From: Trypanosoma brucei | Taxonomy: Eukaryota | Assembly: GCA_000002445.1 (NCBI GenBank) | Contig: CH464491.1 | Span: 4,096,001-4,160,000 of the forward strand | Reading direction: 5' to 3' | DNA length: 64,000 nt | Shown here: positions 5,793-47,765 of the stretch, piece by piece | Layout: each line of letters begins with the position of its first letter | How positions within the stretch are numbered: the first letter of the stretch is position 1 | Notes under the pieces: model-generated | What the model saw: only the letters and a program-made list of their open reading frames with translations | Databases searched by the model: none | Told to the model about the DNA's origin: nothing | Made by a program: the position numbers and the translations under genes

Positions 5793-7812
5793 GCTACTGC
5801 TCTCTTTCACCTTTTCTCCCTTCAACACGGTCCTCGCTTGGACTACACTTTGCCGTCACCACTTCCGTAATTTGAACAGTATAAATGATAACAACGATAA
5901 CAGTACTGACAATAGAAACAGTGGAAAGAGGAGATAAGGAAATTTGACGACGCGACTTCCTGTGTTTTTTTTATTATATTGCATATGGCGCACGTATCAC
6001 AATAACCGGAACGGCGTGAATAAACTATTTAAAAATATATATGAAAAATTAGCCTGTTAGTACAACGAAAGCTTTTTCCTTCAGCCCACTGGAATCAACC
6101 CTTTACAAATCGGTGTATAAAATTATGCTTCGCAACGGCGCCTGCTTCTCTCACCCCTTTTTTTTCTTAGCACTTCGTAAAACTTCTGGCGAAAAGTGTC
6201 CAACTTTGCCCATCCCCCTTCCAACTAATCCACAACAAGCCCACAAAAGGAAAAAGAGATAATAACTTTTTTTTCAAACAAAATAAAAAAGGAAAAAAAT
6301 GGAAAATTGGGCGGTTACATATATATATATATATATAGTATGTTCTATGTTTCTCATTTATCTTTCTTTTTTTCCCCTCCTTTACATTTATGGGGAGTAC
6401 AACTGTTCAAAAAAAAAAAAAGAAATAGTCAGCAACGGTAGGGGGGCACTGCGAAATATGAAGTGAATATTAGGAGATGGGTGACGTAGGGCTCGTATCA
6501 TTGTGTTCAACTGCAGCAACAAAACGAAGATAAGACGGAAATTTTCCTATGAGGAAGGATGAGGAATTCACTTTCACCTAACTCAGTGAAGGTACAACAA
6601 CTAAAAGATAAAAAAGAAAAAATAAACAGGACAAACAAACAAACAAACAAAAAAATGGAACAAACTTGTTGTATTATACGTTTTCTTTACCTTCCACCGA
6701 CCCTCAGGACATCTAACTCACTCCTATGCGCACATTAAAAGTTTGTTTTGTCCTTTTATTTTATTTTCTTTTTTTCTCCATTCATTATTTTCATTCACTG
6801 ATTTCCCACCCTATTTACACCTTTAAATGCCGTTACCGTATACCACATAATGATTTGCCACGCGATTTGGCAAGGAAGTGAGGTGAAGGGGGAAATAGGC
6901 GAATGGGATTAAAAAAAAAAAAGGGCAGCCGCTTTGCACCGATACAATTGAGTTTTTTTTTTTTTTAACGGAAAATAAAGTGCGGAAAAATGACGGTGCA
7001 CGTACCAGCACAAACAAAACGCGTGTGTGTTGCCGGAGGAGAAAAGTAAAATAACCCAAAATAAAATAAAGAAAGCTCAACAGGTGCCGTAGCAACAGTT
7101 TTTTTTTTTTTTTTGGGGGGGATTTCCTCAATTTTTACCTCCTTTGCTTTTCTCGAAAGGTCGGATCTCCTGCACATATTTAGCCGAGATTGAGAAGACC
7201 ACACTAAAGGAAAATACAAGGAGAATAAAGAAAAAAAAAAGAAAGCCAAGAAAGAAAGAAACAAAATCAAGGGGGTGGGGGAGCGCAGGAGGTAAGGAGA
7301 GCACCAGATGGAAAAATAAAAGATTCAAAAAGGACGTAAAACAAACAAAAATAAGAATAATAAGAACAAAAATAATAACCTGCAACTGATGATAGACGTC
7401 TCACTGGGTGCTTTACTAACAAATAAGTAACTATATAAACAAAAACATAAAGGTTTAATCAATTAGTCCCCTTCGTTCCTTCCTTTCCTTTCTTTCGACT
7501 GGCCCTCAACCGTTCCGTCACGAATCATCATATAAATTTATTTTCGCAGAAAGTAACTGTTTCAACCCTTTATTTTGCTTCTATTGTTTTTTTCTATTAT
7601 TATAATAATAATATATATATGTATTTTTTTTCTGTTCAAGTATCATTTCAACCAATGGCTAACTCGTACGGAAAACGTTGTCATTACCGTGCGTCAGTTC
7701 GTCTATTTCGCTAACCCTTGTAACAATGCATAAATATATACGTATACATATAATCAATTTAAATATCTGATCTCAAGAATAAAAAACAGAGTGAAATAAC
7801 AAGGAATTTTAC

Positions 7813-8886: not shown

Positions 8887-11004
8887 TTACACCACACTCG
8901 ACCGCCGCCACTGAGGAGTTGCCTCCAACATTGTTTCATCCTCTTTCCATATGGGAAAGCGTGGCGTCTCGGATAGAATAACTGGATGCATGTTGGGCAA
9001 CCGGTACTCGCTCCACAATGAGTTTGGTGATGGGGTCAAAAGCGGCTGCGTGTCCAGCAACGGGTCTCGGGTTTCCACTGAACTAAGCGGTTGCATGAGC
9101 TGTAACACGAGTTCGTGCATTTGTCGCTCTATTCTATGCTTACGGAGCACGTCTACGAAATTGACTCGGTTGAGCTCCCACACTTCTGTTCCATCATCAG
9201 GTGCAACAATGCTACACGTCCACGGGTGACGTCGCACACAGGTGTAGCCAACGATGCTTCCATCAGGAACGCGTGGCAGACTCGCCCACTCCCTTGCCTG
9301 CACAGTGCCTTCCGCATTACGTTGCACTACACCTTCGTCTTCCACTACAACTGCACCGCCTTGGCAGAAAAGAATGACGGAGTTGCACTCACTTCCACGC
9401 TCCACGATGCATTGCCCCGCTTCGTATCTCATCAATTTAAAACGTGCTGCGCAATCCGTATAGAAGCTGTCATGGGGACCGCAGAGACCCACCAACGGCA
9501 TTTTCCGCAACTGCTCTATAAAAAATGGTGAAACATTCACTCGGTCTGTTTTGTTATCGCGCGGTCGGAAGACATGGCTGGCGATGGAATTGTTGGCAAT
9601 TGTAACACGTTTACTGAAAACACCTGCAGCACCTTGCCCGCGTTGTATCAACTTAGGCACCTGTGAGGGGCTCAAAACGACAGTTTTGAGTACATCGAGA
9701 GAAGGAGGAACGAAACGCATCCCGTCAAAGCACTTATCGGCAGTCAGACTGATGACTTTAGCAGCGCGATGAATCTGTTGTCGGATATTTTGATCCCGTT
9801 TCATGAACGAAGAAAGAACAGAAAACGGCAGAAGGTAGAGGTCCACATTGGTCAGGGTAAAAAATTTATCGCCTAGTCCCTCATGGAACATGCACTGCCA
9901 TTCGCCAAAGGTATGTCCTTCCGAAAATAATGTGCGGCTCCTTGGTTGTGACGGAGGAGCACCGCCCATGGGAATAACCGCCTCCTCCTGCTGGAGGCAC
10001 ACTACGCCACGCCAAATAAAGAATATGTGTCGGGGAGCTTCCCGTTCTCCTATTTGCACACCAGCGGGCCTTACACGAGGCACGAGATGCTCCATCAACT
10101 GCAACAAATCTCTATCGCTGAGTGACACCAGCAGTGGGCAGATTCGCATACGGTTGCATGTCATACATCCAAAGTGCGGGAGCAGCCGCTCCCTCGTCTC
10201 GAGTGCTTTCATAAGAAGAGATCTGTGAATCTGCGGGGGAAACGATCCTAGCAGGGTGCAGTAGGCGCTTTTTGGTATCCATCCAATCAACACTACAGAA
10301 GACTCCGCCAGTAAGTACTCCGTACAGGGAAAACTCCCTACAGCAGAGCATTCCCCAAGTATAGTCGGGGCAGACAACAACGTGTTCCTCTGAGTTCGCA
10401 GAGCCTCAGACTCAATACTTCCTACACTCATTTTTTCACTGCACTGAGTCGATGGCGTAGCAACAATAGGACCCTCGTCGTCATCGTACGTGATAGAGAC
10501 TTCCACGTGAGAACTAGACAACCTCCTATCGTGTGACACCCTCCCTCTAGTTTGGCTAACAGTTGAGCATTTCTTAACAATACCTTTCGCCACGAATACT
10601 ACCGCGTTTGAGGGTTCTCTGCTGTACTGGATAAACTCACCTCGTAGATATACTCTATAGCTTATAGAATCCAGTAGCCTCTTGAGTTGCTCGTTGTTAT
10701 TCTCTAGTTCATCCACCGCGTTGGATTTTTTTAGGCAGGAACCCAACACGGAACGCTGCCTGAGAGCCCTGAAAAGCAACGGTTCCATTTTCACCTCCTT
10801 GCTCATATCCCTCGCGACTCGTTCCCGATACCACCTGGCAATATATCGACGAGCAATGGGATATAACAACCGCCGTAACGCTGCAAAAGCAATGGCTCGC
10901 ACCTCCTCACGGGTGGCGGACGGGTATTGCATCAGCTGCCATCCGAAAGGTACCGTTACCTGCGAGGCCGCGACACGCCTGGAAGCCGCCCACCTGCTGT
11001 CCAT
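8887..11004 (-). CDS. hypothetical protein (~705 aa), possibly with degenerate cyclic-nucleotide-binding-like repeats
   Basis: Long minus ORF. The ORF-track first codon at 11020..11022 is TTG, so I trimmed to the ATG of MDSRWAAS.. at 11004. Internal segments such as ..HTFGEWQCMF.. and ..GQCIVERGSECNSVILFCQGGAVVV.. weakly resemble cNMP-binding beta-barrel motifs. The domain call is tentative. Confidence 0.45.
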   Translation of the reverse strand: MDSRWAASRRVAASQVTVPFGWQLMQYPSATREEVRAIAFAALRRLLYPIARRYIARWYRERVARDMSKEVKMEPLLFRALRQRSVLGSCLKKSNAVDELENNNEQLKRLLDSISYRVYLRGEFIQYSREPSNAVVFVAKGIVKKCSTVSQTRGRVSHDRRLSSSHVEVSITYDDDEGPIVATPSTQCSEKMSVGSIESEALRTQRNTLLSAPTILGECSAVGSFPCTEYLLAESSVVLIGWIPKSAYCTLLGSFPPQIHRSLLMKALETRERLLPHFGCMTCNRMRICPLLVSLSDRDLLQLMEHLVPRVRPAGVQIGEREAPRHIFFIWRGVVCLQQEEAVIPMGGAPPSQPRSRTLFSEGHTFGEWQCMFHEGLGDKFFTLTNVDLYLLPFSVLSSFMKRDQNIRQQIHRAAKVISLTADKCFDGMRFVPPSLDVLKTVVLSPSQVPKLIQRGQGAAGVFSKRVTIANNSIASHVFRPRDNKTDRVNVSPFFIEQLRKMPLVGLCGPHDSFYTDCAARFKLMRYEAGQCIVERGSECNSVILFCQGGAVVVEDEGVVQRNAEGTVQAREWASLPRVPDGSIVGYTCVRRHPWTCSIVAPDDGTEVWELNRVNFVDVLRKHRIERQMHELVLQLMQPLSSVETRDPLLDTQPLLTPSPNSLWSEYRLPNMHPVILSETPRFPIWKEDETMLEATPQWRRSSVV

Positions 11005-11165
11005 TGGCTGGTTAACACTCAAACAGTAACAACAACGGCGACGCGCTCACGAACAACACAATACCAGAGCGGAAGAAGGAGGAATGAGGCCGCGGATTGT
11101 GCTGAACGGCCAATGAAATGGCGCGCGAAGGTGCAAAAACACGGCAGAGAGTATGTTCAAGCGTG

Positions 11166-13787: not shown

Positions 13788-16700
13788 TTAAGAATCCCTG
13801 CTCTCGTCGTTACATAACGAAGCAACGTTACCTCGTTCATCAGAACTTTCAATGTCCATCTGCTCGTACTTGCGACTCAGATTACCCATCACCACGAAGC
13901 TGCTGCTAGCAAGCCGACTTCGTATACGGTTAAAGTGTTCTACAATGCAATTGTTTTCCTTCCTGTAGGTTGAGATAACCGAATTTGAATGCAGTATCTT
14001 CCTCTGCAAATATTCCACCTCTTCCCGTAGCCGCGCAACGGTCTTGGGTGGGTCCTTGGGAAGACTTCCATCATCAAGCTTCAACAAAGATGGCATATCT
14101 ACCCTTTTCCCAGTTTCTTTTTCGTAAACAGCGATCTCTTCTTCTAGAAGCGTCATCGCCCGGGGTATCTTCTCATCCCTGTCCAGTTGTTCCGACAGAA
14201 AGTTCATTTCCTCATGATATGCCTCGTAGCGGTAGGCAACACGTATGTCAGAGACTCGGCTCTTGCGTGCATCATTTCCAAGTGTCGAATTGAGGTAATA
14301 CAAATTCCCGAGGGCGTTCTTCTTCCATGCGTGAGGGAAGCCACTCTGTAGCACACTGTTACGTGCAATCTCTGACAAATCATTGAATTCAAACTTCCAA
14401 AGTTTGGCGGCAATAGAGTATTCTTCAATAAGCGGTTCCCGTGTGAAGTGGAAGTAAAGCGGTTGATTGGTCGCAAGGCTAACATTTAGCCCACGGCGAA
14501 AAAATAGAGGAAAGGGGTTCAAAAGATACTCTGAGGCGGCCGCGGTATTGCTCAACGGCGACATCGCCACACCCACCTGAGTTATATAGTACATGTATTC
14601 TAGCACGGGGTTGTTACGCAGCGTCACACCATGGTTAATGCCATCGGCCAGCAAAAATCCCCCAATGAGATGTTCAATGTCCCCCAACTCACCGCATTGG
14701 GGTCGAAACGCGAAGGTGCTAAGTCCGCGCGATGCGCGGAACTGATTCAATGTTGTAATGTTTGCCCAATAGTAGTAGAGATACATGTTATATGGCGGGT
14801 TTAACTCACTATTCCAGTCGTGTGGGTACTTGCAGGTGAGTGGAAGATCAATTTTCGTTTCATCATCAACGCAGTCCATCCCTGATACGTGTGTGAGAAA
14901 ATAGTGAAATCTCGTGTCTTTGGCGGGATGAAGACTGACTTCCCACAAGGGCTGGAAGATATTGTCCAAGTACTCGCCGAAGTTACGCACGATCCCCTGC
15001 TGACGGAGCCGACGGTAGCACCGGGGCAAACTAATCATCCAACGGTTCTGCCTGCTCGCCATGCCATAGCGATCAAACCAGTGTGCCAACAAGGCCCATT
15101 CACTCTTTGATTTGCCACCAATAACCAAACGGTTTTCAGAAAAACTGAAAGCATCCTCCTGATACAGCTCTAGTGTGCGTTTTGTCAGTTCAGCAAAATA
15201 GCGTCCCTTCATAAAGTTATCCGGGTCCAAAAAAGTTGTGCGCAGCTGCGGGTTCGTGTTTAACAAATGATTCAATTCATCGACGGTAATGCGCGTGGGA
15301 TTAATCTTGTGCCGCTCCAGCACTTGCCTTAATGTCACCGGCTGGTTGTCCTCCTCAAACACTACATCATGTCCATGATGAAGCGCCTTCTCCACGAAGA
15401 ACTCCAGCAGCGTACGGGCATTCATACCGGCCGCCGTTTGCACGTTAGTATCCACCTTATGCGCGGTGAAAAAGTCCCTGTTATTCCATTCCTTTTCCTC
15501 CTTCTTACCAGCTTCTTTAGAAATGTTAAGGGCCAGGTGAAGATGGAACTTCCGCTCCAGAAGATTCAACCGCTGCGTAGCGAGATTCCGCAGCTTTTGG
15601 TGACCCATAACCGCACCCCGGACGGTGTACACGTCACGTATGAACTCCTTAACAGGAGGAATGAAACTTGGCCACTGTGGCGCCAACCCACTGCGACACG
15701 TGAGAAAAACACCATAGTAGTTGTTATATTCCCAAAGCGACTCATCGAAATTAGAGTCGTTGAATACATCCTCCACCTTTACGTCAACATATTTAACACG
15801 CGGATTAACGTACTTACTTCGGAGAACAATAATTTCGCGAAGCAGCTCGACTGCTTCTCGTTCACGGAAGCCTGTGGGCCCGTCAGTAACATCGATTCGT
15901 GAGAAGACGACACGCCAATCCGTGTGATTGGCTCGCTTTGCATTTCGCAACTGTTGAAGATCGTCGTCCAACGTCCTTGCGGCACCCGTCACGGTGACCA
16001 TGTTTATGCGTGTGGGCTGCTCTCCCTTCTTAGCCACCTGCGAAAGGACAAGGTTCAGCACCGCCTCTTCGTGTACTAAACATTCTTGGCGGAATTGTAA
16101 ACGGGAATCACAGGCACCCAAGCGGCGAACATCACCTCCACCAAACTCCAGGTGCTGAAAGATGTCACCCAACCACTTTTGCTTTACCGCGTCAGGAAAG
16201 TTACTGTTGAGAACACTGTTCCGCGACAGTTCATACACAGCCATTGGCGTCATGGAAAACAACTTCATCAGCGTTGCGTATTCCTCCAGCAGTGGATTGA
16301 TTGAGTGGTGCACATAAAGAGGATCGGATGTTGTTATAGATACCACCAATCCCCGGAGAAAGTATCGAACAATGGGATGGTCAAAGTAAGACATGCTCAG
16401 CGCATTGTCACGCAGAGGTGACATAACAATACCAATCCGACAGTACATGAAGAGGTACTGCATGATCCAGCTACTTTGCAGCGTGTTGGCGTGGTACACT
16501 ACGTCACCTAGTAGGAAACTGGATATCAGTTGCTCGTACATGGGGGCCCGCTCGAACACGGAGGGACTGAAGTTGAGTGTGTTTAAGTCATACCGCGCGC
16601 GCAGGCAGTTCAGCGCTAAAAGGTTAGACCATATGTAGTAAAAGAAGTAGCAGTCGCTAATGGAAGCTGTGTATTTCACTTGCTCCGGACTTACAGCATC

Positions 16701-18041
16701 CAATGTAATGCTCTGCGATTGCGTTTGAGACCCCGTTAGAATGCTGATGGAGCCTGTTTTCTTCAGTAATAAGGCGACGTCCACCCACCGCTGTTCTGAT
16801 GGGTGCAATGTAGCCATAAACATCGGATAGAAAATATTCTTTAGTTGGTCGGAAAAGGTGTCACATGTAATAGGTTGCATGTTTGGCCCTTCAGGGGGTG
16901 CAGTACGGGGGATGCAAATTGTCCAGCTGTTTAGGGTGAATGAGTTAAACCCTTGTCGACTCACCCACGCAGCAAGTTTCTCTAGTTCCTCCGCATTGTG
17001 TCCATAAACCTTAAGTTGCATTTCTGTGGCAAAGGTCTGTCGCCCCCGGAACTCCCGCTGTTCGAACTCTGGACGAATGATAGACCCAAGGAGATCACCA
17101 TCTCTCGAACCGTTTGTAGAGAGAAATGACTGAAGCAAATCGGTGGCAAAACGGCCTCCTGGGTTGAGCGCCGAGTCAAACGCATCGTATTGCTGAAATT
17201 TGTTGTGATACTTGGGCGGGTGCATCCCAAGTCCTTGCACTGTTAGCTGACGTGGGTCCTTCACACCATGAGATTCCAAGTATTCATGCAGCAGTACGGT
17301 TTTCCCCTTCTCCCGGAATAGCGGGGTACGTGGTTGTTCAGTGGCTGTTGAGATGATGAACTCAAGCACAACCTGAGCTATGACAGAAGTGTTCAACTGT
17401 AGTGCGTTGTCAACGCGCGTACACTGGACATACATATTGTCACCACACACAGGTCTATCTACATTGGACTCTATTTTCCAATTCAACAATGCAAATAACT
17501 GTGACTTTCTCTCCAAAGTAAGGAGTCGGGACCTCGCCGCTGAAAGACAGGGGCCAGATTCAATCACACTGTAGACCAACCGCACGTCCCGTACATACGT
17601 TTCCCACGGTATTACATGCGTCTTCATGCCGCCAAACCGATAAACGCCCCGGTCAAATACTAGTGTTGTCTCGTCGTCCCCTGGGGTAATGTCAGAGGAT
17701 TCTTCCTCGTCGCCCTCTTTTGTTAGGCTATCAAACTCACCCTTGTCTCGTTGCTTGTATTTCTGCCTCGCAAGAATGACATTGGCGATCATCTCTGCAC
17801 ACTTTGCAAAGTCTCTATCGCCGTCATCCTCGCCTATAATAACCCTCTGGTATCGACTCGACGGATTCTTTCTAATATTCTTTCTTCCTGCATCGGCGTT
17901 GAATGCTGTCTTTTCTCTCTGCCACGCAGACTGCTCCGTGCGTGAGAGTTCCGGCTGGGGGCCAGTCTTGATGGAAGTAGGTGATCGGTCACGAGGCGAA
18001 GCAACCGGCCCCGACATGGGAAGGGGCGTTGGATCCGACAT
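13788..18041 (-). CDS. AMP deaminase-like protein (1417 aa) with two tandem AMP/adenosine-deaminase-fold domains, both apparently missing the catalytic zinc ligands (candidate pseudoenzyme)
   Basis: True ATG (cat at 18039..18041; MSDPTPLP..). The C-terminal domain aligns block for block with canonical AMPD ([16 protein letters not shown] vs [25 protein letters not shown] vs [66 protein letters not shown] vs [46 protein letters not shown]). The N-terminal domain is a second, more diverged copy (..[42 protein letters not shown]..). Confidence 0.8.
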   Translation of the reverse strand: [1417 protein letters not shown]

Positions 18042-18385
18042 CTCTAATTGTTGAAAATGGCGCTACCTAAGGGGGACCAACGATTTGAGTTTCTTTTTAT
18101 TTTTCTAATGGGGAAGAATGGGGAGAAAATGAGGAGATGACGAGAAAATTAGTGCACTTGCGTTATCATCAGAGTTCGGCTGTACAACTAGGGCGATGCA
18201 GCACGATGAAACAACAAATACAACAACGCGAGGCGTGGCAGTAGTTGGCGTCGCTGCTGGTGGAATGGAAATTAGCCAATTACACTACAGAAAACAGGAA
18301 TGAAACAAGAGCGTACGAGACGGGAAAATACCAATGGCAAACAAAAAGCAACACCACCGGCTTAACCTAACGTTCTTATCCGCTC

Positions 18386-39779: not shown

Positions 39780-41168
39780 CTACTTCTTAACCTCGTCGTA
39801 AATGGTTAATGCCGTACCAAACACAACAGCGAATACGCCGACAATGAGCAACTGGTATGTGACAGCGTAGTTGAACCACCCAACCTCTTTCAGAGAGAAG
39901 TTCCCCGCATACATGTAATACAGTGCTGGTAGAATAAAAGCAAGGAAGCCACCACAGAAACTTCCAAGAAAGTTGAAGACAACTTCAATACTGGGTAGCA
40001 CAAGTCCCAGTACGAGAGCGAGGGTAGCCAAGACACCACTCACTACGAGGTTCTTCCAGCTGTCAACATCAGACGTCTTCCCCCATCCCAATACATAATA
40101 AATCGCATCACGAGATGGCTGGATGCAAATAGCGAATCCTACGCATATCTTGATAGCGATGCCAACATACCCGATGGCCATCATCACATCATCTTGTGGT
40201 TTGTACAATTTGAGTACGGAGCCTTCTAGATCATTCCCGAAATCAAGATAACCGAAGATACCAGACAAGAAATACAGGAGACCAACCATCGACATCGCCA
40301 CACTACTGTCGCGCGTCATTCGCCGTGGGGTGGGTCCCTTCATCTCTTCATACACCTCAAAACAATTCACCTGACATATGAAGGCAAATACAAACAGTGT
40401 GAAGCCATTCAGAATCCCCCATCCATCACCGACGAGTCGAATGTCCGATCCTATCCCGTCTTTCAAGCCATTCATCGCAGCGTGTACAATCATGCATATC
40501 ACAAAGAAAACAATGAAGAAAACACCCACAGCAGAAGCATATCGAAGTGAGTTAATCTCCTTGGGAAGCGAGAGTGGTAACATGGCAACCAACCAAACTA
40601 CACCAACAATAACGTTCTTTCCCATCGATGTCCTCAGGAATCCAGTTGTTGAAGGCTGATTCAAAAGTGGAGAGAGTAAGTCACCCACTGATATCACGTA
40701 CCCAACGCAGGTTCCAAAGCAGAAAACAAACATCAAGAAAGCCGTAAAGTAGTCTGCACCGCGGCCAAGCAACCCACACGCCATCTCCTCATACGAACGG
40801 AATCCAGTTTTGTCCCTAGTGATCACGAGTATGCGGATAGAGTACACTGTGGTGAAGCAGATGTACACCAACATTAACGTGGCAATTATTATGCCAGAGT
40901 TGAGGAAACCAGAAGGCAGCATCACAATTCCAGCACCAAGGGTAGCACTCTCCAGGTTAAACACATTTGACGCCATTCCACCATATGGAACAATTCCCTT
41001 GATGGGGTCAAATACCGTGTTCAGGCAGCCCCTGTGCTCCCCGTCAGCAGCTGCTGTAGATTTATCGCTGTCTGGAGGTAATTCCAACACATTACCCTGA
41101 GACAAGCTTGGTATTAAGGTTGGGTGTTCGTCCTCGTTTATTATTGGCTCTGTTGCCCTGGGTGACAT
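39780..41168 (-). CDS. amino acid transporter (Aa_trans/AAAP family, AAT-type, ~11 TM), copy 1
   Basis: True ATG (cat at 41166..41168). 462 aa with multiple hydrophobic helices. Typical kinetoplastid AAT architecture: a hydrophilic N-terminus MSPRATEPIINEDEHPTL.. followed by ..LGAGIVMLPSGF... Confidence 0.85.
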   Translation of the reverse strand: MSPRATEPIINEDEHPTLIPSLSQGNVLELPPDSDKSTAAADGEHRGCLNTVFDPIKGIVPYGGMASNVFNLESATLGAGIVMLPSGFLNSGIIIATLMLVYICFTTVYSIRILVITRDKTGFRSYEEMACGLLGRGADYFTAFLMFVFCFGTCVGYVISVGDLLSPLLNQPSTTGFLRTSMGKNVIVGVVWLVAMLPLSLPKEINSLRYASAVGVFFIVFFVICMIVHAAMNGLKDGIGSDIRLVGDGWGILNGFTLFVFAFICQVNCFEVYEEMKGPTPRRMTRDSSVAMSMVGLLYFLSGIFGYLDFGNDLEGSVLKLYKPQDDVMMAIGYVGIAIKICVGFAICIQPSRDAIYYVLGWGKTSDVDSWKNLVVSGVLATLALVLGLVLPSIEVVFNFLGSFCGGFLAFILPALYYMYAGNFSLKEVGWFNYAVTYQLLIVGVFAVVFGTALTIYDEVKK

Positions 41169-46376: not shown

Positions 46377-47765
46377 CTACTTCTTAACCTCGTCGTAAAT
46401 GGTTAATGCCGTACCAAACACAACAGCGAATACGCCGACAATGAGCAACTGGTATGTGACAGCGTAGTTGAACCACCCAACCTCTTTCAGAGAGAAGTTC
46501 CCCGCATACATGTAATACAGTGCTGGTAGAATAAAAGCAAGGAAGCCACCACAGAAACTTCCAAGAAAGTTGAAGACAACTTCAATACTGGGTAGCACAA
46601 GTCCCAGTACGAGAGCGAGGGTAGCCAAGACACCACTCACTACGAGGTTCTTCCAGCTGTCAACATCAGACGTCTTCCCCCATCCCAATACATAATAAAT
46701 CGCATCACGAGATGGCTGGATGCAAATAGCGAACCCCCCACAAATCTTGATAGCGATGCCAACATACCCGATGGCCATCATCACATCATCTTGTGGTTTG
46801 TACAATTTGAGTACGGAGCCTTCTAGATCATTCCCGAAATCAAGATAACCGAAGATACCAGACAAGAAATACAGGAGACCAACCATCGACATCGCCACAC
46901 TACTGTCGCGCGTCATTCGCCGTGGGGTGGGTCCCTTCATCTCTTCATACACCTCAAAACAATTCACCTGACATATGAAGGCAAATACAAACAGTGTGAA
47001 GCCATTCAGAATCCCCCATCCATCACCGACGAGTCGAATGTCCGATCCTATCCCGTCTTTCAAGCCATTCATCGCAGCGTGTACAATCATGCATATCACA
47101 AAGAAAACAATGAAGAAAACACCCACAGCAGAAGCATATCGAAGTGAGTTAATCTCCTTGGGAAGCGAGAGTGGTAACATGGCAACCAACCAAACTACAC
47201 CAACAATAACGTTCTTTCCCATCGATGTCCTCAGGAATCCAGTTGTTGAAGGCTGATTCAAAAGTGGAGAGAGTAAGTCACCCACTGATATCACGTACCC
47301 AACGCAGGTTCCAAAGCAGAAAACAAACATCAAGAAAGCCGTAAAGTAGTCTGCACCGCGGCCAAGCAACCCACACGCCATCTCCTCATACGAACGGAAT
47401 CCAGTTTTGTCCCTAGTGATCACGAGTATGCGGATAGAGTACACTGTGGTGAAGCAGATGTACACCAACATTAACGTGGCAATTATTATGCCAGAGTTGA
47501 GGAAACCAGAAGGCAGCATCACAATTCCAGCACCAAGGGTAGCACTCTCCAGGTTAAACACATTTGACGCCATTCCACCAGACGGAACAACTCCCTTGAT
47601 GGGGTCAAATACCGTGTTCAGGCAGCCCCTGTGCTCCCCGTCAGCAGCTGCTGTAGATTTATCGCTGTCTGGAGGTAATTCCAACACATTACCCTGAGAC
47701 AAGCTTGGTATTAAGGTTGGGTGTTCGTCCTCGTTTATTATTGGCTCTGTTGCCCTGGGTGACAT
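46377..47765 (-). CDS. amino acid transporter (Aa_trans/AAAP family), copy 2
   Basis: 462 aa, differing from copy 1 at only about 3 residues (I/V, Y/S in ..KG(I/V)VP(Y/S)GGMASN.. and V/G in ..KIC(V/G)GFAIC..). Same flanking sequence. Confidence 0.85.
   Translation of the reverse strand: MSPRATEPIINEDEHPTLIPSLSQGNVLELPPDSDKSTAAADGEHRGCLNTVFDPIKGVVPSGGMASNVFNLESATLGAGIVMLPSGFLNSGIIIATLMLVYICFTTVYSIRILVITRDKTGFRSYEEMACGLLGRGADYFTAFLMFVFCFGTCVGYVISVGDLLSPLLNQPSTTGFLRTSMGKNVIVGVVWLVAMLPLSLPKEINSLRYASAVGVFFIVFFVICMIVHAAMNGLKDGIGSDIRLVGDGWGILNGFTLFVFAFICQVNCFEVYEEMKGPTPRRMTRDSSVAMSMVGLLYFLSGIFGYLDFGNDLEGSVLKLYKPQDDVMMAIGYVGIAIKICGGFAICIQPSRDAIYYVLGWGKTSDVDSWKNLVVSGVLATLALVLGLVLPSIEVVFNFLGSFCGGFLAFILPALYYMYAGNFSLKEVGWFNYAVTYQLLIVGVFAVVFGTALTIYDEVKK

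What the first reader, a model, noticed from the sequence alone, without database searches (positions are those of the whole stretch)
13788..18041. Double AMP-deaminase-like protein with every zinc ligand swapped to Asn/Gln (candidate pseudoenzyme)
The 1417-aa product contains two deaminase-fold domains in tandem. The C-terminal one is conserved block for block with catalytic AMPD, yet the residues that coordinate the catalytic zinc are replaced by amides. The His-x-His motif (VDTHIH) reads VDTNVQ. The third His (RPHCGE) reads RPQCGE. The Asp-Asp pair of the SLSTDDP signature reads SLATNQP. Four out of four metal-binding or catalytic side chains become Asn/Gln while flanking residues are preserved. 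That pattern suggests selection to keep the fold and substrate pocket while abolishing catalysis, for example an AMP-binding regulator or a scaffold, rather than simple decay. The N-terminal domain is a further diverged copy that also lacks the HxH and His triad positions (SITTSDP, no RPHCGE). I am not aware of any characterisation of this architecture and cannot check.
Basis: partly seen in the sequence, partly recalled or inferred. Interest (0 to 1): 0.7.

Follow-up and report, generated by a model that had tools for sequence, protein, structure and literature searches.

The report
Doubly dead tandem AMP-deaminase paralogue
This Trypanosoma brucei gene, labelled "AMP deaminase", encodes two AMP-deaminase-like barrels that have both lost the catalytic zinc site (the second also lost the loop that holds AMP's ribose-phosphate), yet it is strongly conserved in all trypanosomatids, so it is most likely a working non-catalytic relative of a purine-salvage enzyme.

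Summary
The 1417-aa ORF (minus strand, 13788-18041) is T. brucei Q381L1/XP_829632.1 and holds two complete AMP-deaminase units. Profile and PDB alignments place N866, Q868, Q1115 and N1192 at the four zinc-ligand positions of the C-terminal unit, and Q1193 at the adjacent catalytic Asp. The N-terminal unit has A, Q, S and S at the ligand positions.

- The C-unit has also deleted the 17-residue loop that holds the ribose and 5'-phosphate of AMP. The "AMP-binding regulator" idea is therefore weakened.
- The dead C-unit is the best-conserved part of the protein: 85% identity to T. cruzi, 71% to Leishmania. N866, Q1115 and N1192 are invariant in all orthologues examined.
- The tandem layout is not unique. 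Euglenozoan AMP deaminases generally carry a degenerate N-unit. Trypanosomatids have one paralogue with an active C-unit (Tb927.9.9740 type) and two fully dead ones (this gene and the Tb927.9.7180 type).

Best reading: a selected pseudoenzyme that acts through protein contacts, possibly as a prozyme-like partner of the active paralogue. That last step is inferred. I found no paper describing this. It is a new variant of a known kind, of moderate interest.

The parts
13788..18041 (-). Complete CDS (1417 aa plus stop): T. brucei 'AMP deaminase, putative', UniProt Q381L1, XP_829632.1, chromosome 11
18105..18148 (-). Polypyrimidine tract ending in AG, the likely trans-splice acceptor upstream of the ATG
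   Evidence: (sequence TTTTCTCGTCATCTCCTCATTTTCTCCCCATTCTTCCCCATTAG); function inferred from kinetoplastid gene structure
17619..17861 (-). aa 61-141: conserved N-terminal AMPD element of unit 1 ([33 protein letters not shown])
   Evidence: (matches the F-x-R-I-x-I-x-G...LR-x-KY consensus of canonical AMPDs)
16047..17618 (-). aa 142-665: N-terminal AMP-deaminase barrel (unit 1), degenerate. Ligand positions are A213, Q215, S494 and S572. E497, the catalytic-His equivalent and D573 are kept
   Evidence: 53 of 86 family-invariant columns kept
17397..17414 (-). VDNALQ, in place of the VDTHIH (HxH) motif of unit 1
16551..16568 (-). SPSVFE, in place of RPHCGE in unit 1
16320..16340 (-). SITTSDP, in place of SLSTDDP in unit 1
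15666..16046 (-). aa 666-792: linker containing the repeated N-terminal AMPD element of unit 2 ([13 protein letters not shown]...[17 protein letters not shown])
   Evidence: low pLDDT in part
14178..15665 (-). aa 793-1288: C-terminal AMP-deaminase barrel (unit 2). It is the most conserved region, with the zinc site replaced by amides
   Evidence: 70 of 86 invariant columns kept; Foldseek TM 0.84-0.86 to 8HU6 and 2A3L
15438..15455 (-). VDTNVQ: HxH motif with H391->N866 and H393->Q868
15240..15281 (-). [14 protein letters not shown]: site of the 17-residue deletion that removes or replaces the ribose/5'-phosphate residues K462, F463, K466, Y467 and R474
14688..14705 (-). RPQCGE: H659->Q1115, with the catalytic Glu E1118 retained
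14460..14480 (-). SLATNQP: D736->N1192 (Zn ligand) and D737->Q1193
13791..14177 (-). aa 1289-1417: poorly conserved, mostly helical C-terminal tail with two conserved helices (PRAMxLLEEE; QNxxIxxxxNxIRxRLxxEGLxxxGxL)
   Evidence: a coiled-coil or oligomerisation role is inferred only

Best explanation
The gene encodes a conserved pseudoenzyme: a tandem of two AMP-deaminase barrels, neither of which can bind the catalytic zinc.

Shown:
- Both units belong to the AMPD family by sequence and fold.
- All four zinc ligands are replaced in both units.
- The C-unit has also deleted the loop that holds the ribose and 5'-phosphate of AMP.
- The C-unit is nevertheless under strong purifying selection across all Trypanosomatidae, including at the replacement residues N866, Q1115 and N1192.
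- The gene descends from an ancestral euglenozoan tandem AMPD whose N-unit was already degenerate.
- Trypanosomatids keep a sister paralogue (Tb927.9.9740 type) whose C-unit is fully catalytic.

Inferred:
- The invariant amides form a hydrogen-bonded plug that replaces the metal and keeps the barrel rigid.
- The protein does not deaminate AMP and does not bind AMP in the canonical way.
- It works through protein-protein contacts as a structural or regulatory subunit.
- The most likely arrangement is that the two barrels imitate an AMPD dimer and associate with the active tandem paralogue, tuning AMP-to-IMP flux in the manner of the trypanosomatid prozymes.
For: - Family membership and fold.
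- Ligand replacement in both units.
- Mutating each of the four equivalent ligands to Ala inactivates Plasmodium AMPD (10.1101/447789, read).
- Substrate-loop deletion specific to class A and absent from the active paralogue.
- Purifying selection: (C-unit 84.7% identical to T. cruzi and 71.2% to L. donovani; 253 of 496 positions invariant in 17 species). Searches show N866, Q1115, N1192 and T1166 invariant in all class-A sequences, while position 1193 drifts.
- Orthologues across Trypanosoma, Leishmania, Leptomonas, Porcisia and Phytomonas.
- An active sister paralogue exists: L. major CBZ13110.1, the reciprocal-best hit of Tb927.9.9740 in 10.1101/2024.04.19.590284, has KVDTHIH, RPHCGE, SLSTDDP and FERFDNF.
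- Common origin of all euglenozoan N-units: 100% NJ bootstrap. Monophyly of class-A C-units: 100%.
- Precedents for dead paralogues regulating active ones in trypanosomatids: AdoMetDC and DHS prozymes (PMC3663545, PMC5201418). There is also an inactive APRT isoform in the same salvage pathway (PMC8836349).
Against: - There is no direct evidence of any partner, localisation or phenotype for this gene. I could not recover its TriTrypDB identifier from the literature.
- The relative placement of the two barrels is not confidently predicted (pTM 0.57 and 0.42), so the pseudo-dimer idea is untested.
- This protein is not among the 151 paraflagellar-rod proteins, whereas the active paralogue and the other dead paralogue are. 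Co-localisation with the active enzyme is therefore not established.
- Retention of the catalytic Glu, the catalytic His and the bracing Asp shows the pocket still matters. A ligand-binding or new catalytic role is therefore not excluded.
Confidence: 0.6

Rival explanations
1. AMP/IMP sensor. The C-unit keeps the canonical substrate pocket, binds AMP without turning it over, and signals energy charge.
For: 70 of 86 family-invariant positions are kept, including the catalytic Glu, the catalytic His and the bracing Asp. The pocket region is highly conserved.
Against: The ribose/5'-phosphate loop (K462, F463, K466, Y467, R474 of 2A3L) is deleted or replaced in all class-A C-units. The purine-N7 Asp position varies among Q, E, K, D and M. 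SNN->SNT and LF->AA changes also line the site. R386 of the allosteric phosphate site is His.
Confidence: 0.1
2. Repurposed pocket. The invariant amide-lined cavity (N866, Q1115, N1192, T1166) with retained E1118, H1137 and D1056 binds a different ligand or carries out metal-independent chemistry, so the protein is a neo-enzyme or neo-receptor rather than an inert scaffold.
For: The replacement residues are invariant over the whole family while a neighbouring position drifts, which points to constraint on the pocket itself. The acid/base pair is retained. Metal-independent members of the amidohydrolase superfamily exist (my own knowledge, e.g. LigI; not checked here).
Against: No candidate ligand is known. 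The same conservation pattern is expected if the amides simply stabilise the barrel core. H1137 is Gln in one lineage (P0009).
Confidence: 0.13
3. Still a zinc-dependent AMP deaminase, with the apparent substitutions being an alignment error or compensated by migrated ligands.
For: It is annotated 'AMP deaminase, putative' in all databases.
Against: Three independent alignments agree: the Pfam HMM, phmmer to two solved structures, and my own HMM built from 40 active AMPDs. The motifs are flanked by identical residues (KVDT-x-x, RP-x-CGE, T-x-x-P). Each single ligand-to-Ala mutation kills Plasmodium AMPD.
Confidence: 0.02
4. A decaying gene copy (pseudogene in progress) with no function.
For: Loss of catalytic residues and of a substrate loop.
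Against: The reading frame is intact at 1417 aa, and full-length orthologues exist in every trypanosomatid genus sampled. The C-unit is 71-85% identical across the family. Only 2-3 amino-acid differences separate the T. brucei subspecies.
Confidence: 0.01

Closest known systems
Canonical AMP deaminase (human AMPD2, PDB 8HU6/8HUB; Arabidopsis FAC1, PDB 2A3L; yeast Amd1)
   Same: Same family and fold for both units: PF19326 at 278 and 504 bits, phmmer E = 1e-118 for the whole protein, Foldseek TM 0.84-0.86. The N-terminal 'F-x-R-V-x-I-x-G...LR-x-KY' element is present in front of each barrel. The catalytic Glu and His are conserved.
   Different: There are two units in one chain. No zinc ligands remain in either. 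The C-unit lacks the catalytic Asp737 equivalent and the ribose/phosphate loop. The protein is therefore not expected to deaminate AMP.
Trypanosomatid tandem AMPD with an active C-unit (Tb927.9.9740 type; L. major CBZ13110.1; also Diplonema, Entosiphon, Papus)
   Same: Same two-unit architecture and size (about 1470 aa in Leishmania), with a degenerate N-unit of common origin (100% bootstrap).
   Different: Its C-unit has the full HHH-E-H-DD set and the FERFDNF...KYNP substrate loop. It localises to the outer paraflagellar rod and the cytoplasm (10.1101/2024.04.19.590284). Our protein is dead in both units and is not in that PFR list.
Second fully dead tandem paralogue (Tb927.9.7180 type; T. 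vivax KAH8604123; L. major chr 4 P0327)
   Same: Tandem architecture, zinc ligands lost in both units, H391->N shared, substrate loop degenerate.
   Different: A different replacement set (N-R-S-E-Y-D-S, with D736 kept and the catalytic His replaced by Tyr). It is larger (1690-1975 aa) and PFR-localised. Whether the two dead classes lost activity once or twice is unresolved (55% vs 41% bootstrap).
Trypanosomatid prozymes (AdoMetDC prozyme, DHSp)
   Same: A catalytically dead paralogue retained alongside an active one in the same lineage and under strong selection (PMC3663545, PMC5201418).
   Different: For prozymes, hetero-oligomer formation and activation have been demonstrated. Here neither has been tested, and the dead copy is itself a tandem of two dead units.
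Amidohydrolase-fold pseudoenzymes such as the dihydropyrimidinase-like CRMP/DPYSL proteins (my own knowledge, not tested here)
   Same: The (beta/alpha)8 metal-hydrolase fold is kept, the metal ligands are lost, and the protein acts through protein-protein interactions.
   Different: A different branch of the superfamily, single domain, in metazoa. The resemblance is an analogy only.

Membership tests
AMP deaminase family (Pfam PF19326; EC 3.5.4.6) | Sequence match above the curated threshold, and the AMPD fold | tested here: met
   777.6 bits against a 27-bit cutoff, in two stretches. Foldseek TM 0.84-0.86 to 8HU6 and 2A3L.
AMP deaminase family (Pfam PF19326; EC 3.5.4.6) | Four zinc ligands (H391, H393, H659, D736 in 2A3L numbering) | tested here: not met
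   The C-unit has N866, Q868, Q1115, N1192. The N-unit has A213, Q215, S494, S572.
AMP deaminase family (Pfam PF19326; EC 3.5.4.6) | Catalytic Glu662, His681 and Asp737 | tested here: inconclusive
   Glu and His are kept in both units. Asp737 is Q1193 in the C-unit and D573 (kept) in the N-unit.
AMP deaminase family (Pfam PF19326; EC 3.5.4.6) | Ribose/5'-phosphate loop (K462, F463, K466, Y467, R474) | tested here: not met
   There is a 17-residue deletion in the C-unit, and the Lys residues are replaced in the N-unit.
AMP deaminase family (Pfam PF19326; EC 3.5.4.6) | AMP -> IMP + NH3 activity with bound zinc | not testable with these tools
   Requires recombinant protein.
Euglenozoan tandem AMPD architecture | Two PF19326 units in one chain, with the N-unit lacking the three His ligands | tested here: met
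   The N-units of kinetoplastids, diplonemids and euglenids form one clade (100% bootstrap).
Trypanosomatid prozyme (dead paralogue that activates an active one) | Catalytic residues are lost in one paralogue while an intact paralogue exists in the same genomes | tested here: met
   Dead. The intact paralogue was shown in Leishmania and is assigned to Tb927.9.9740 through the reciprocal-best-hit table of 10.1101/2024.04.19.590284. The T. brucei sequence itself was not retrieved.
Trypanosomatid prozyme (dead paralogue that activates an active one) | Physical hetero-oligomer with the active paralogue | not testable with these tools
   No complex prediction was possible, and no interaction data were found.
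Trypanosomatid prozyme (dead paralogue that activates an active one) | Activity of the active paralogue depends on the dead one | not testable with these tools
   Requires enzymology or genetics.

The most novel reading that the evidence does not exclude
Euglenozoa run AMP deamination with obligate tandem (pseudo-dimeric) enzymes. Trypanosomatids have spun off two completely dead tandem copies that act as prozyme-like regulatory or anchoring partners of the single active tandem AMPD. This would be a third, independent 'dead paralogue controls live paralogue' system in these parasites, this time governing adenylate/energy-charge and purine interconversion. A variant of this reading is that the invariant amide-lined pocket has become a new ligand-binding site.
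Probability: 0.25. Interest if true: 0.7.

Novelty: new variant of a known kind. Interest (0 to 1): 0.5.

Why it matters
- Trypanosomatids cannot make purines de novo, so AMP deaminase sits on every purine-salvage map and on drug-target lists. At least two of the genes labelled "AMP deaminase" in T. brucei, T. cruzi and Leishmania cannot be that enzyme. Metabolic models, knock-out interpretations and target lists that count them as isoenzymes are therefore wrong.
- Strict conservation of a doubly dead enzyme, with a surgically clean H/H/H/D to N/Q/Q/N exchange, gives a natural experiment on what an amidohydrolase barrel is good for without its metal.
- It also provides a concrete candidate for a new prozyme-type regulatory pair in a lineage already known for that strategy.
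- Every euglenozoan AMPD examined carries a degenerate N-terminal copy, so a pseudo-dimeric design may be ancestral to the phylum.

Tried and rejected
- I translated the plus strand first. The gene is on the minus strand.
- The full-length homologue search returned only nine proteins, all Trypanosoma plus one unnamed. Leishmaniinae orthologues appeared only when I queried with P0009.
- My first extraction of ligand columns was shifted by hmmalign trimming and gave nonsense. I redid it from motif anchors.
- I suspected this was one of the paraflagellar-rod AMP deaminases of 10.1101/2024.04.19.590284. Accession comparison shows it is a different, chromosome-11 paralogue.
- I tried to recover the TriTrypDB gene ID, a localisation or a phenotype from the literature. 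Nothing was found.
- I followed the 'putative mitochondrial' label on some orthologues into a kinetoplastid mitochondrial complexome paper. It does not mention deaminases.
- I tried to test the intramolecular pseudo-dimer idea with AlphaFold2. The mixed alignment gave pLDDT 76 and pTM 0.57. An orthologue-only alignment was worse, at pLDDT 59 and pTM 0.42. No coordinates are exposed, so the inter-barrel geometry is undetermined.
- Independent versus single loss of activity in the two dead classes: the point NJ tree suggested independence, but the bootstrap does not resolve it (55.5% vs 41%).
- A regex tally of ligand residues was contaminated by N-unit matches at the H659 position. I rely on the HMM-aligned tables instead.
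- dN/dS was not attempted. Subspecies differ by only 2-3 residues, and other species are too far apart for unsaturated synonymous sites.

Full report
WHAT IS THERE

The finding's coordinates hold one open reading frame, but on the minus strand: 13788-18041, ATG start, 1417 codons.

All ORFs of 200 aa or more in the 64-kb window are on that strand, as expected for a kinetoplastid polycistronic unit. A 44-nt polypyrimidine tract ending in AG lies about 60 nt upstream of the ATG, which fits a trans-splice acceptor and supports the start codon.

The protein is 100% identical to 'AMP deaminase, putative' of Trypanosoma brucei TREU927 and T. equiperdum (UniProt Q381L1, XP_829632.1, EAN80520.1). The longest contig holding the gene is 5.26 Mb, and I take the locus to be chromosome 11. 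T. b. gambiense and T. b. equiperdum differ at only 2-3 residues, none in the motifs.

CHECKING THE OBSERVATION

Pfam's AMP_deaminase model (PF19326) matches twice: aa 142-663 (278 bits) and aa 793-1286 (504 bits). The two halves align with each other over about 550 residues (28% identity, E = 2e-53).

phmmer against all PDB sequences finds only human AMPD2 (8HU6/8HUB) and Arabidopsis FAC1 (2A3L), for both halves. Anchored on 2A3L numbering, the C-unit reads:
- H391 -> N866
- H393 -> Q868
- H659 -> Q1115
- D736 -> N1192
- D737 -> Q1193

The catalytic Glu (E662 -> E1118), the catalytic His (H681 -> H1137) and the Asp that braces H659 (D598 -> D1056) are retained.

The N-unit reads A213, Q215, S494 and S572 at the four ligand positions. 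It keeps the Glu, the His and the second Asp.

According to the Plasmodium AMPD study (10.1101/447789, read), those four residues coordinate the metal in 2A3L, and changing any one of the equivalents to Ala abolishes function in yeast complementation.

An AlphaFold2 model of aa 120-1300 (pLDDT 76, pTM 0.57) folds both halves as alpha/beta barrels. Its best structural matches are 8HU6 and 2A3L (TM 0.84-0.86 on the target).

I then asked which of the 86 columns that are at least 97% invariant in 202 catalytic domains survive here. The C-unit keeps 70 and the N-unit keeps 53.

The 16 differences in the C-unit are not only the five metal/catalytic residues. The others are:
- Four columns (R, F, D, F) fall in a deletion.
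- SNN becomes SNT. The Thr is invariant in all class-A sequences.
- The following L-F becomes A/G-A/S.
- SLSTDDP becomes SLATN-x-P.

The deletion removes 17 residues of the segment F-H-R-F-D-K-F-N-x-K-Y-N-P...R. In 2A3L this segment carries F463 and Y467, which position the ribose. It also carries the Lys and Arg residues that hold the 5'-phosphate of coformycin 5'-phosphate (10.1101/447789; PMC3042610). In T. brucei:
- K462 and F463 are absent.
- K466 -> N928.
- Y467 -> T929.
- R474 -> Q932.

The deletion is present in every class-A C-unit examined, from Trypanosoma to Leishmania and Phytomonas. The loop is intact (FERFDNFNSKYNP) in the active paralogue. The D737 position, which in this fold contacts the purine, varies among Q, E, K, D and M. 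Canonical AMP binding is therefore unlikely.

NOT DECAY

Full-length orthologues exist in eight Trypanosoma species. They also exist in Leishmania (six species), Leptomonas, Porcisia and Phytomonas.

Region-by-region identity of T. brucei to T. cruzi and to L. donovani:

| Region | vs T. cruzi | vs L. donovani |
|---|---|---|
| N-unit | 63.5% | 54.8% |
| Linker | 54% | 38% |
| C-unit | 84.7% | 71.2% |
| C-terminal tail | 31% | 26% |

In the C-unit, 253 of 496 positions are invariant in 17 species. N866, Q1115, N1192 and T1166 are invariant in all class-A sequences, including deeper unnamed relatives.

H->N, H->Q and D->N are each one-nucleotide steps. The T. brucei codons are AAC, CAA, CAA and AAT. 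These are the most isosteric ways to remove a metal ligand. That they have stayed fixed while the neighbouring position 1193 drifts argues for selection on the amides themselves. I infer that they form a hydrogen-bonded substitute for the metal that keeps the barrel core intact. That is inference, not a result.

THE WIDER FAMILY

An exhaustive phmmer search of 1.84 billion cluster representatives with the C-unit found 2975 relatives. Dozens of them are 1200-2300 aa long with two or more AMPD stretches.

Reading the seven key positions (H, H, H, E, H, D, D) in each unit and naming representatives gives four classes:

- **Class A (this gene).** Dead N-unit (A-x-S-E-H-S-D) plus dead C-unit (N-Q/H-Q-E-H-N-x).
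- **Class B.** Degenerate N-unit plus fully catalytic C-unit (HHHEHDD).
  - Members: Leishmania (cluster containing L. major CBZ13110.1), the prokinetoplastid Papus, Diplonema papillatum, the euglenid Entosiphon and the diplonemid Namystynia.
  - CBZ13110.1 is listed as the reciprocal-best hit of Tb927.9.9740 in the paraflagellar-rod preprint 10.1101/2024.04.19.590284.
  - I confirmed KVDTHIH, RPHCGE, SLSTDDP and FERFDNF in it.
- **Class C.** Dead N-unit plus a differently dead C-unit (N-R-S-E-Y-D-S).
  - Members: T. vivax 'adenosine monophosphate deaminase', the L. major chromosome-4 protein, and a T. congolense fragment.
  - By its name and its chromosome-4 Leishmania member this looks like the Tb927.9.7180 type, though no class-C accession was matched to that paper's table.
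- **Class D.** Proteins from unnamed organisms with an active N-unit and a near-active C-unit. They group elsewhere in the tree.

In a neighbour-joining analysis (509 columns, 200 bootstraps):
- All euglenozoan N-units form one clade (100%).
- Class-A C-units form one clade (100%).
- Class-C C-units form one clade (100%).
- Whether A and C lost activity once (41%) or separately (class C with an active Papus C-unit, 55.5%) is unresolved.

The tandem layout with a degenerate first unit is therefore ancestral to Euglenozoa. What is special about this gene is that the second unit has also been disarmed and then frozen.

SURROUNDINGS

The neighbours on the same strand are:
- a cNMP-binding-domain protein;
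- a WD40 protein;
- an Fe-superoxide dismutase;
- a TARBP1/SpoU methyltransferase;
- two 99.4%-identical amino-acid transporters;
- a VASt-domain protein;
- ribosomal protein L27.

In kinetoplastid polycistrons adjacency carries no functional implication (established knowledge), and I draw none.

HOW IT MOST LIKELY WORKS

Shown: the protein cannot coordinate the catalytic zinc in either unit, it lacks the AMP ribose-phosphate loop in the better-conserved unit, and it is under strong purifying selection.

Inferred: it is a non-catalytic protein that acts through its surfaces.

The most economical model draws on three facts:
- AMPDs are oligomeric. 8HU6 contains four chains.
- Trypanosomatids keep an active tandem paralogue.
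- This lineage has repeatedly turned dead paralogues into obligatory activators of live ones: the AdoMetDC and DHS prozymes (PMC3663545, PMC5201418). It also has an inactive APRT isoform in the same pathway (PMC8836349).

I therefore propose that the two barrels mimic an AMPD dimer and that the protein partners with, and modulates or positions, the active enzyme.

My estimates: about 0.9 that it is not an AMP deaminase, about 0.9 that it is functional, and about 0.3 for the specific partner-of-active-AMPD step.

Against the last step:
- The active class-B protein and the dead class-C protein are paraflagellar-rod components in T. brucei. This protein is not in that 151-protein list.
- AlphaFold2 did not place the two barrels confidently.

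The retained Glu/His/Asp and the invariant amides leave room for a repurposed ligand pocket, and I keep that as a rival.

NOVELTY

Full-text searches combining AMP deaminase with pseudoenzyme, catalytically inactive, prozyme, kinetoplastid, Leishmania or paraflagellar rod found no description of a dead or tandem AMPD. Purine-salvage papers treat 'AMP deaminase' as a single enzymatic step.

The library excludes most subscription journals, and I could not query TriTrypDB or TrypTag, so prior notice elsewhere cannot be excluded.

Pseudoenzymes and trypanosomatid prozymes are well known, and the gene itself is annotated. I therefore rate this a new variant of a known kind, of moderate interest. 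It corrects the annotation of at least two 'AMP deaminase' genes per trypanosomatid genome and nominates a testable regulatory pair.

Noticed in passing
window 39780-41168 and 46377-47765 (-): Two 462-aa amino-acid transporter genes (Pfam Aa_trans) are 99.4% identical at the DNA level. Each is preceded by low-GC, strongly AT-skewed intergenic DNA (38-40 kb and 44-46 kb), which suggests a recent tandem duplication or ongoing gene conversion.
   Followed up: partly
window 8887-11022 (-): A 711-aa protein with a cyclic-nucleotide-binding domain lies two genes downstream of the AMPD-like gene. No functional link is implied by adjacency in a kinetoplastid polycistron.
   Followed up: no
related proteins P0159, P0293 (T. 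vivax), P0327 (L. major chr 4), P0038 (T. congolense): The paralogue that looks like the Tb927.9.7180 type, counted as a 'metabolic' AMP deaminase of the paraflagellar rod in 10.1101/2024.04.19.590284, is also dead in both units (C-unit N-R-S-E-Y-D-S, substrate loop degenerate).
   Followed up: partly
related proteins P0156 (Entosiphon), P0162 (Diplonema), P0158/P0164 (Papus), P0174/P0300 (Leishmania): Active euglenozoan AMP deaminases are themselves tandem proteins whose N-terminal unit has lost the three His ligands. A pseudo-dimeric design appears ancestral to the phylum.
   Followed up: partly
related protein P0165 (Euglena gracilis, 1444 aa): The Euglena tandem AMPD has a degenerate C-unit as well (Y-H-H-gap-N-H-F), which suggests further independent inactivations outside kinetoplastids.
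   Followed up: no
related proteins P0161, P0168, P0169, P0171, P0173, P0184 (unnamed sources): A separate group of tandem AMPDs has an ACTIVE N-unit and a near-active C-unit (HHHEHDN or similar). They group away from the euglenozoan tandems in the NJ tree, so tandem duplication of AMPD happened more than once.
   Followed up: no
related protein P0151 (EukProt gene model, 7575 aa): A 7575-aa predicted protein ends in a class-A tandem AMPD (units at aa 6193-6753 and 6837-7374). It is probably a fused gene model.
   Followed up: no
protein cluster of P0001 (member P0010): A 57-aa bacterial lipoprotein-like peptide from an Endomicrobiaceae MAG is filed in the same 90% cluster as the T. brucei protein but shares only 10 of 57 residues. 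This is a clustering artefact of the database, not biology.
   Followed up: yes
window 15369-15902 (+): A 177-aa antisense ORF lies inside the AMPD-like gene. Nothing supports it as a gene.
   Followed up: no
literature: PMC7563732, Figure 4: The L. infantum proteome paper assigns 'AMPDA' to LINF_130014700 on chromosome 13. This points to at least one further AMPD paralogue in Leishmania, whose catalytic status I could not check.
   Followed up: no
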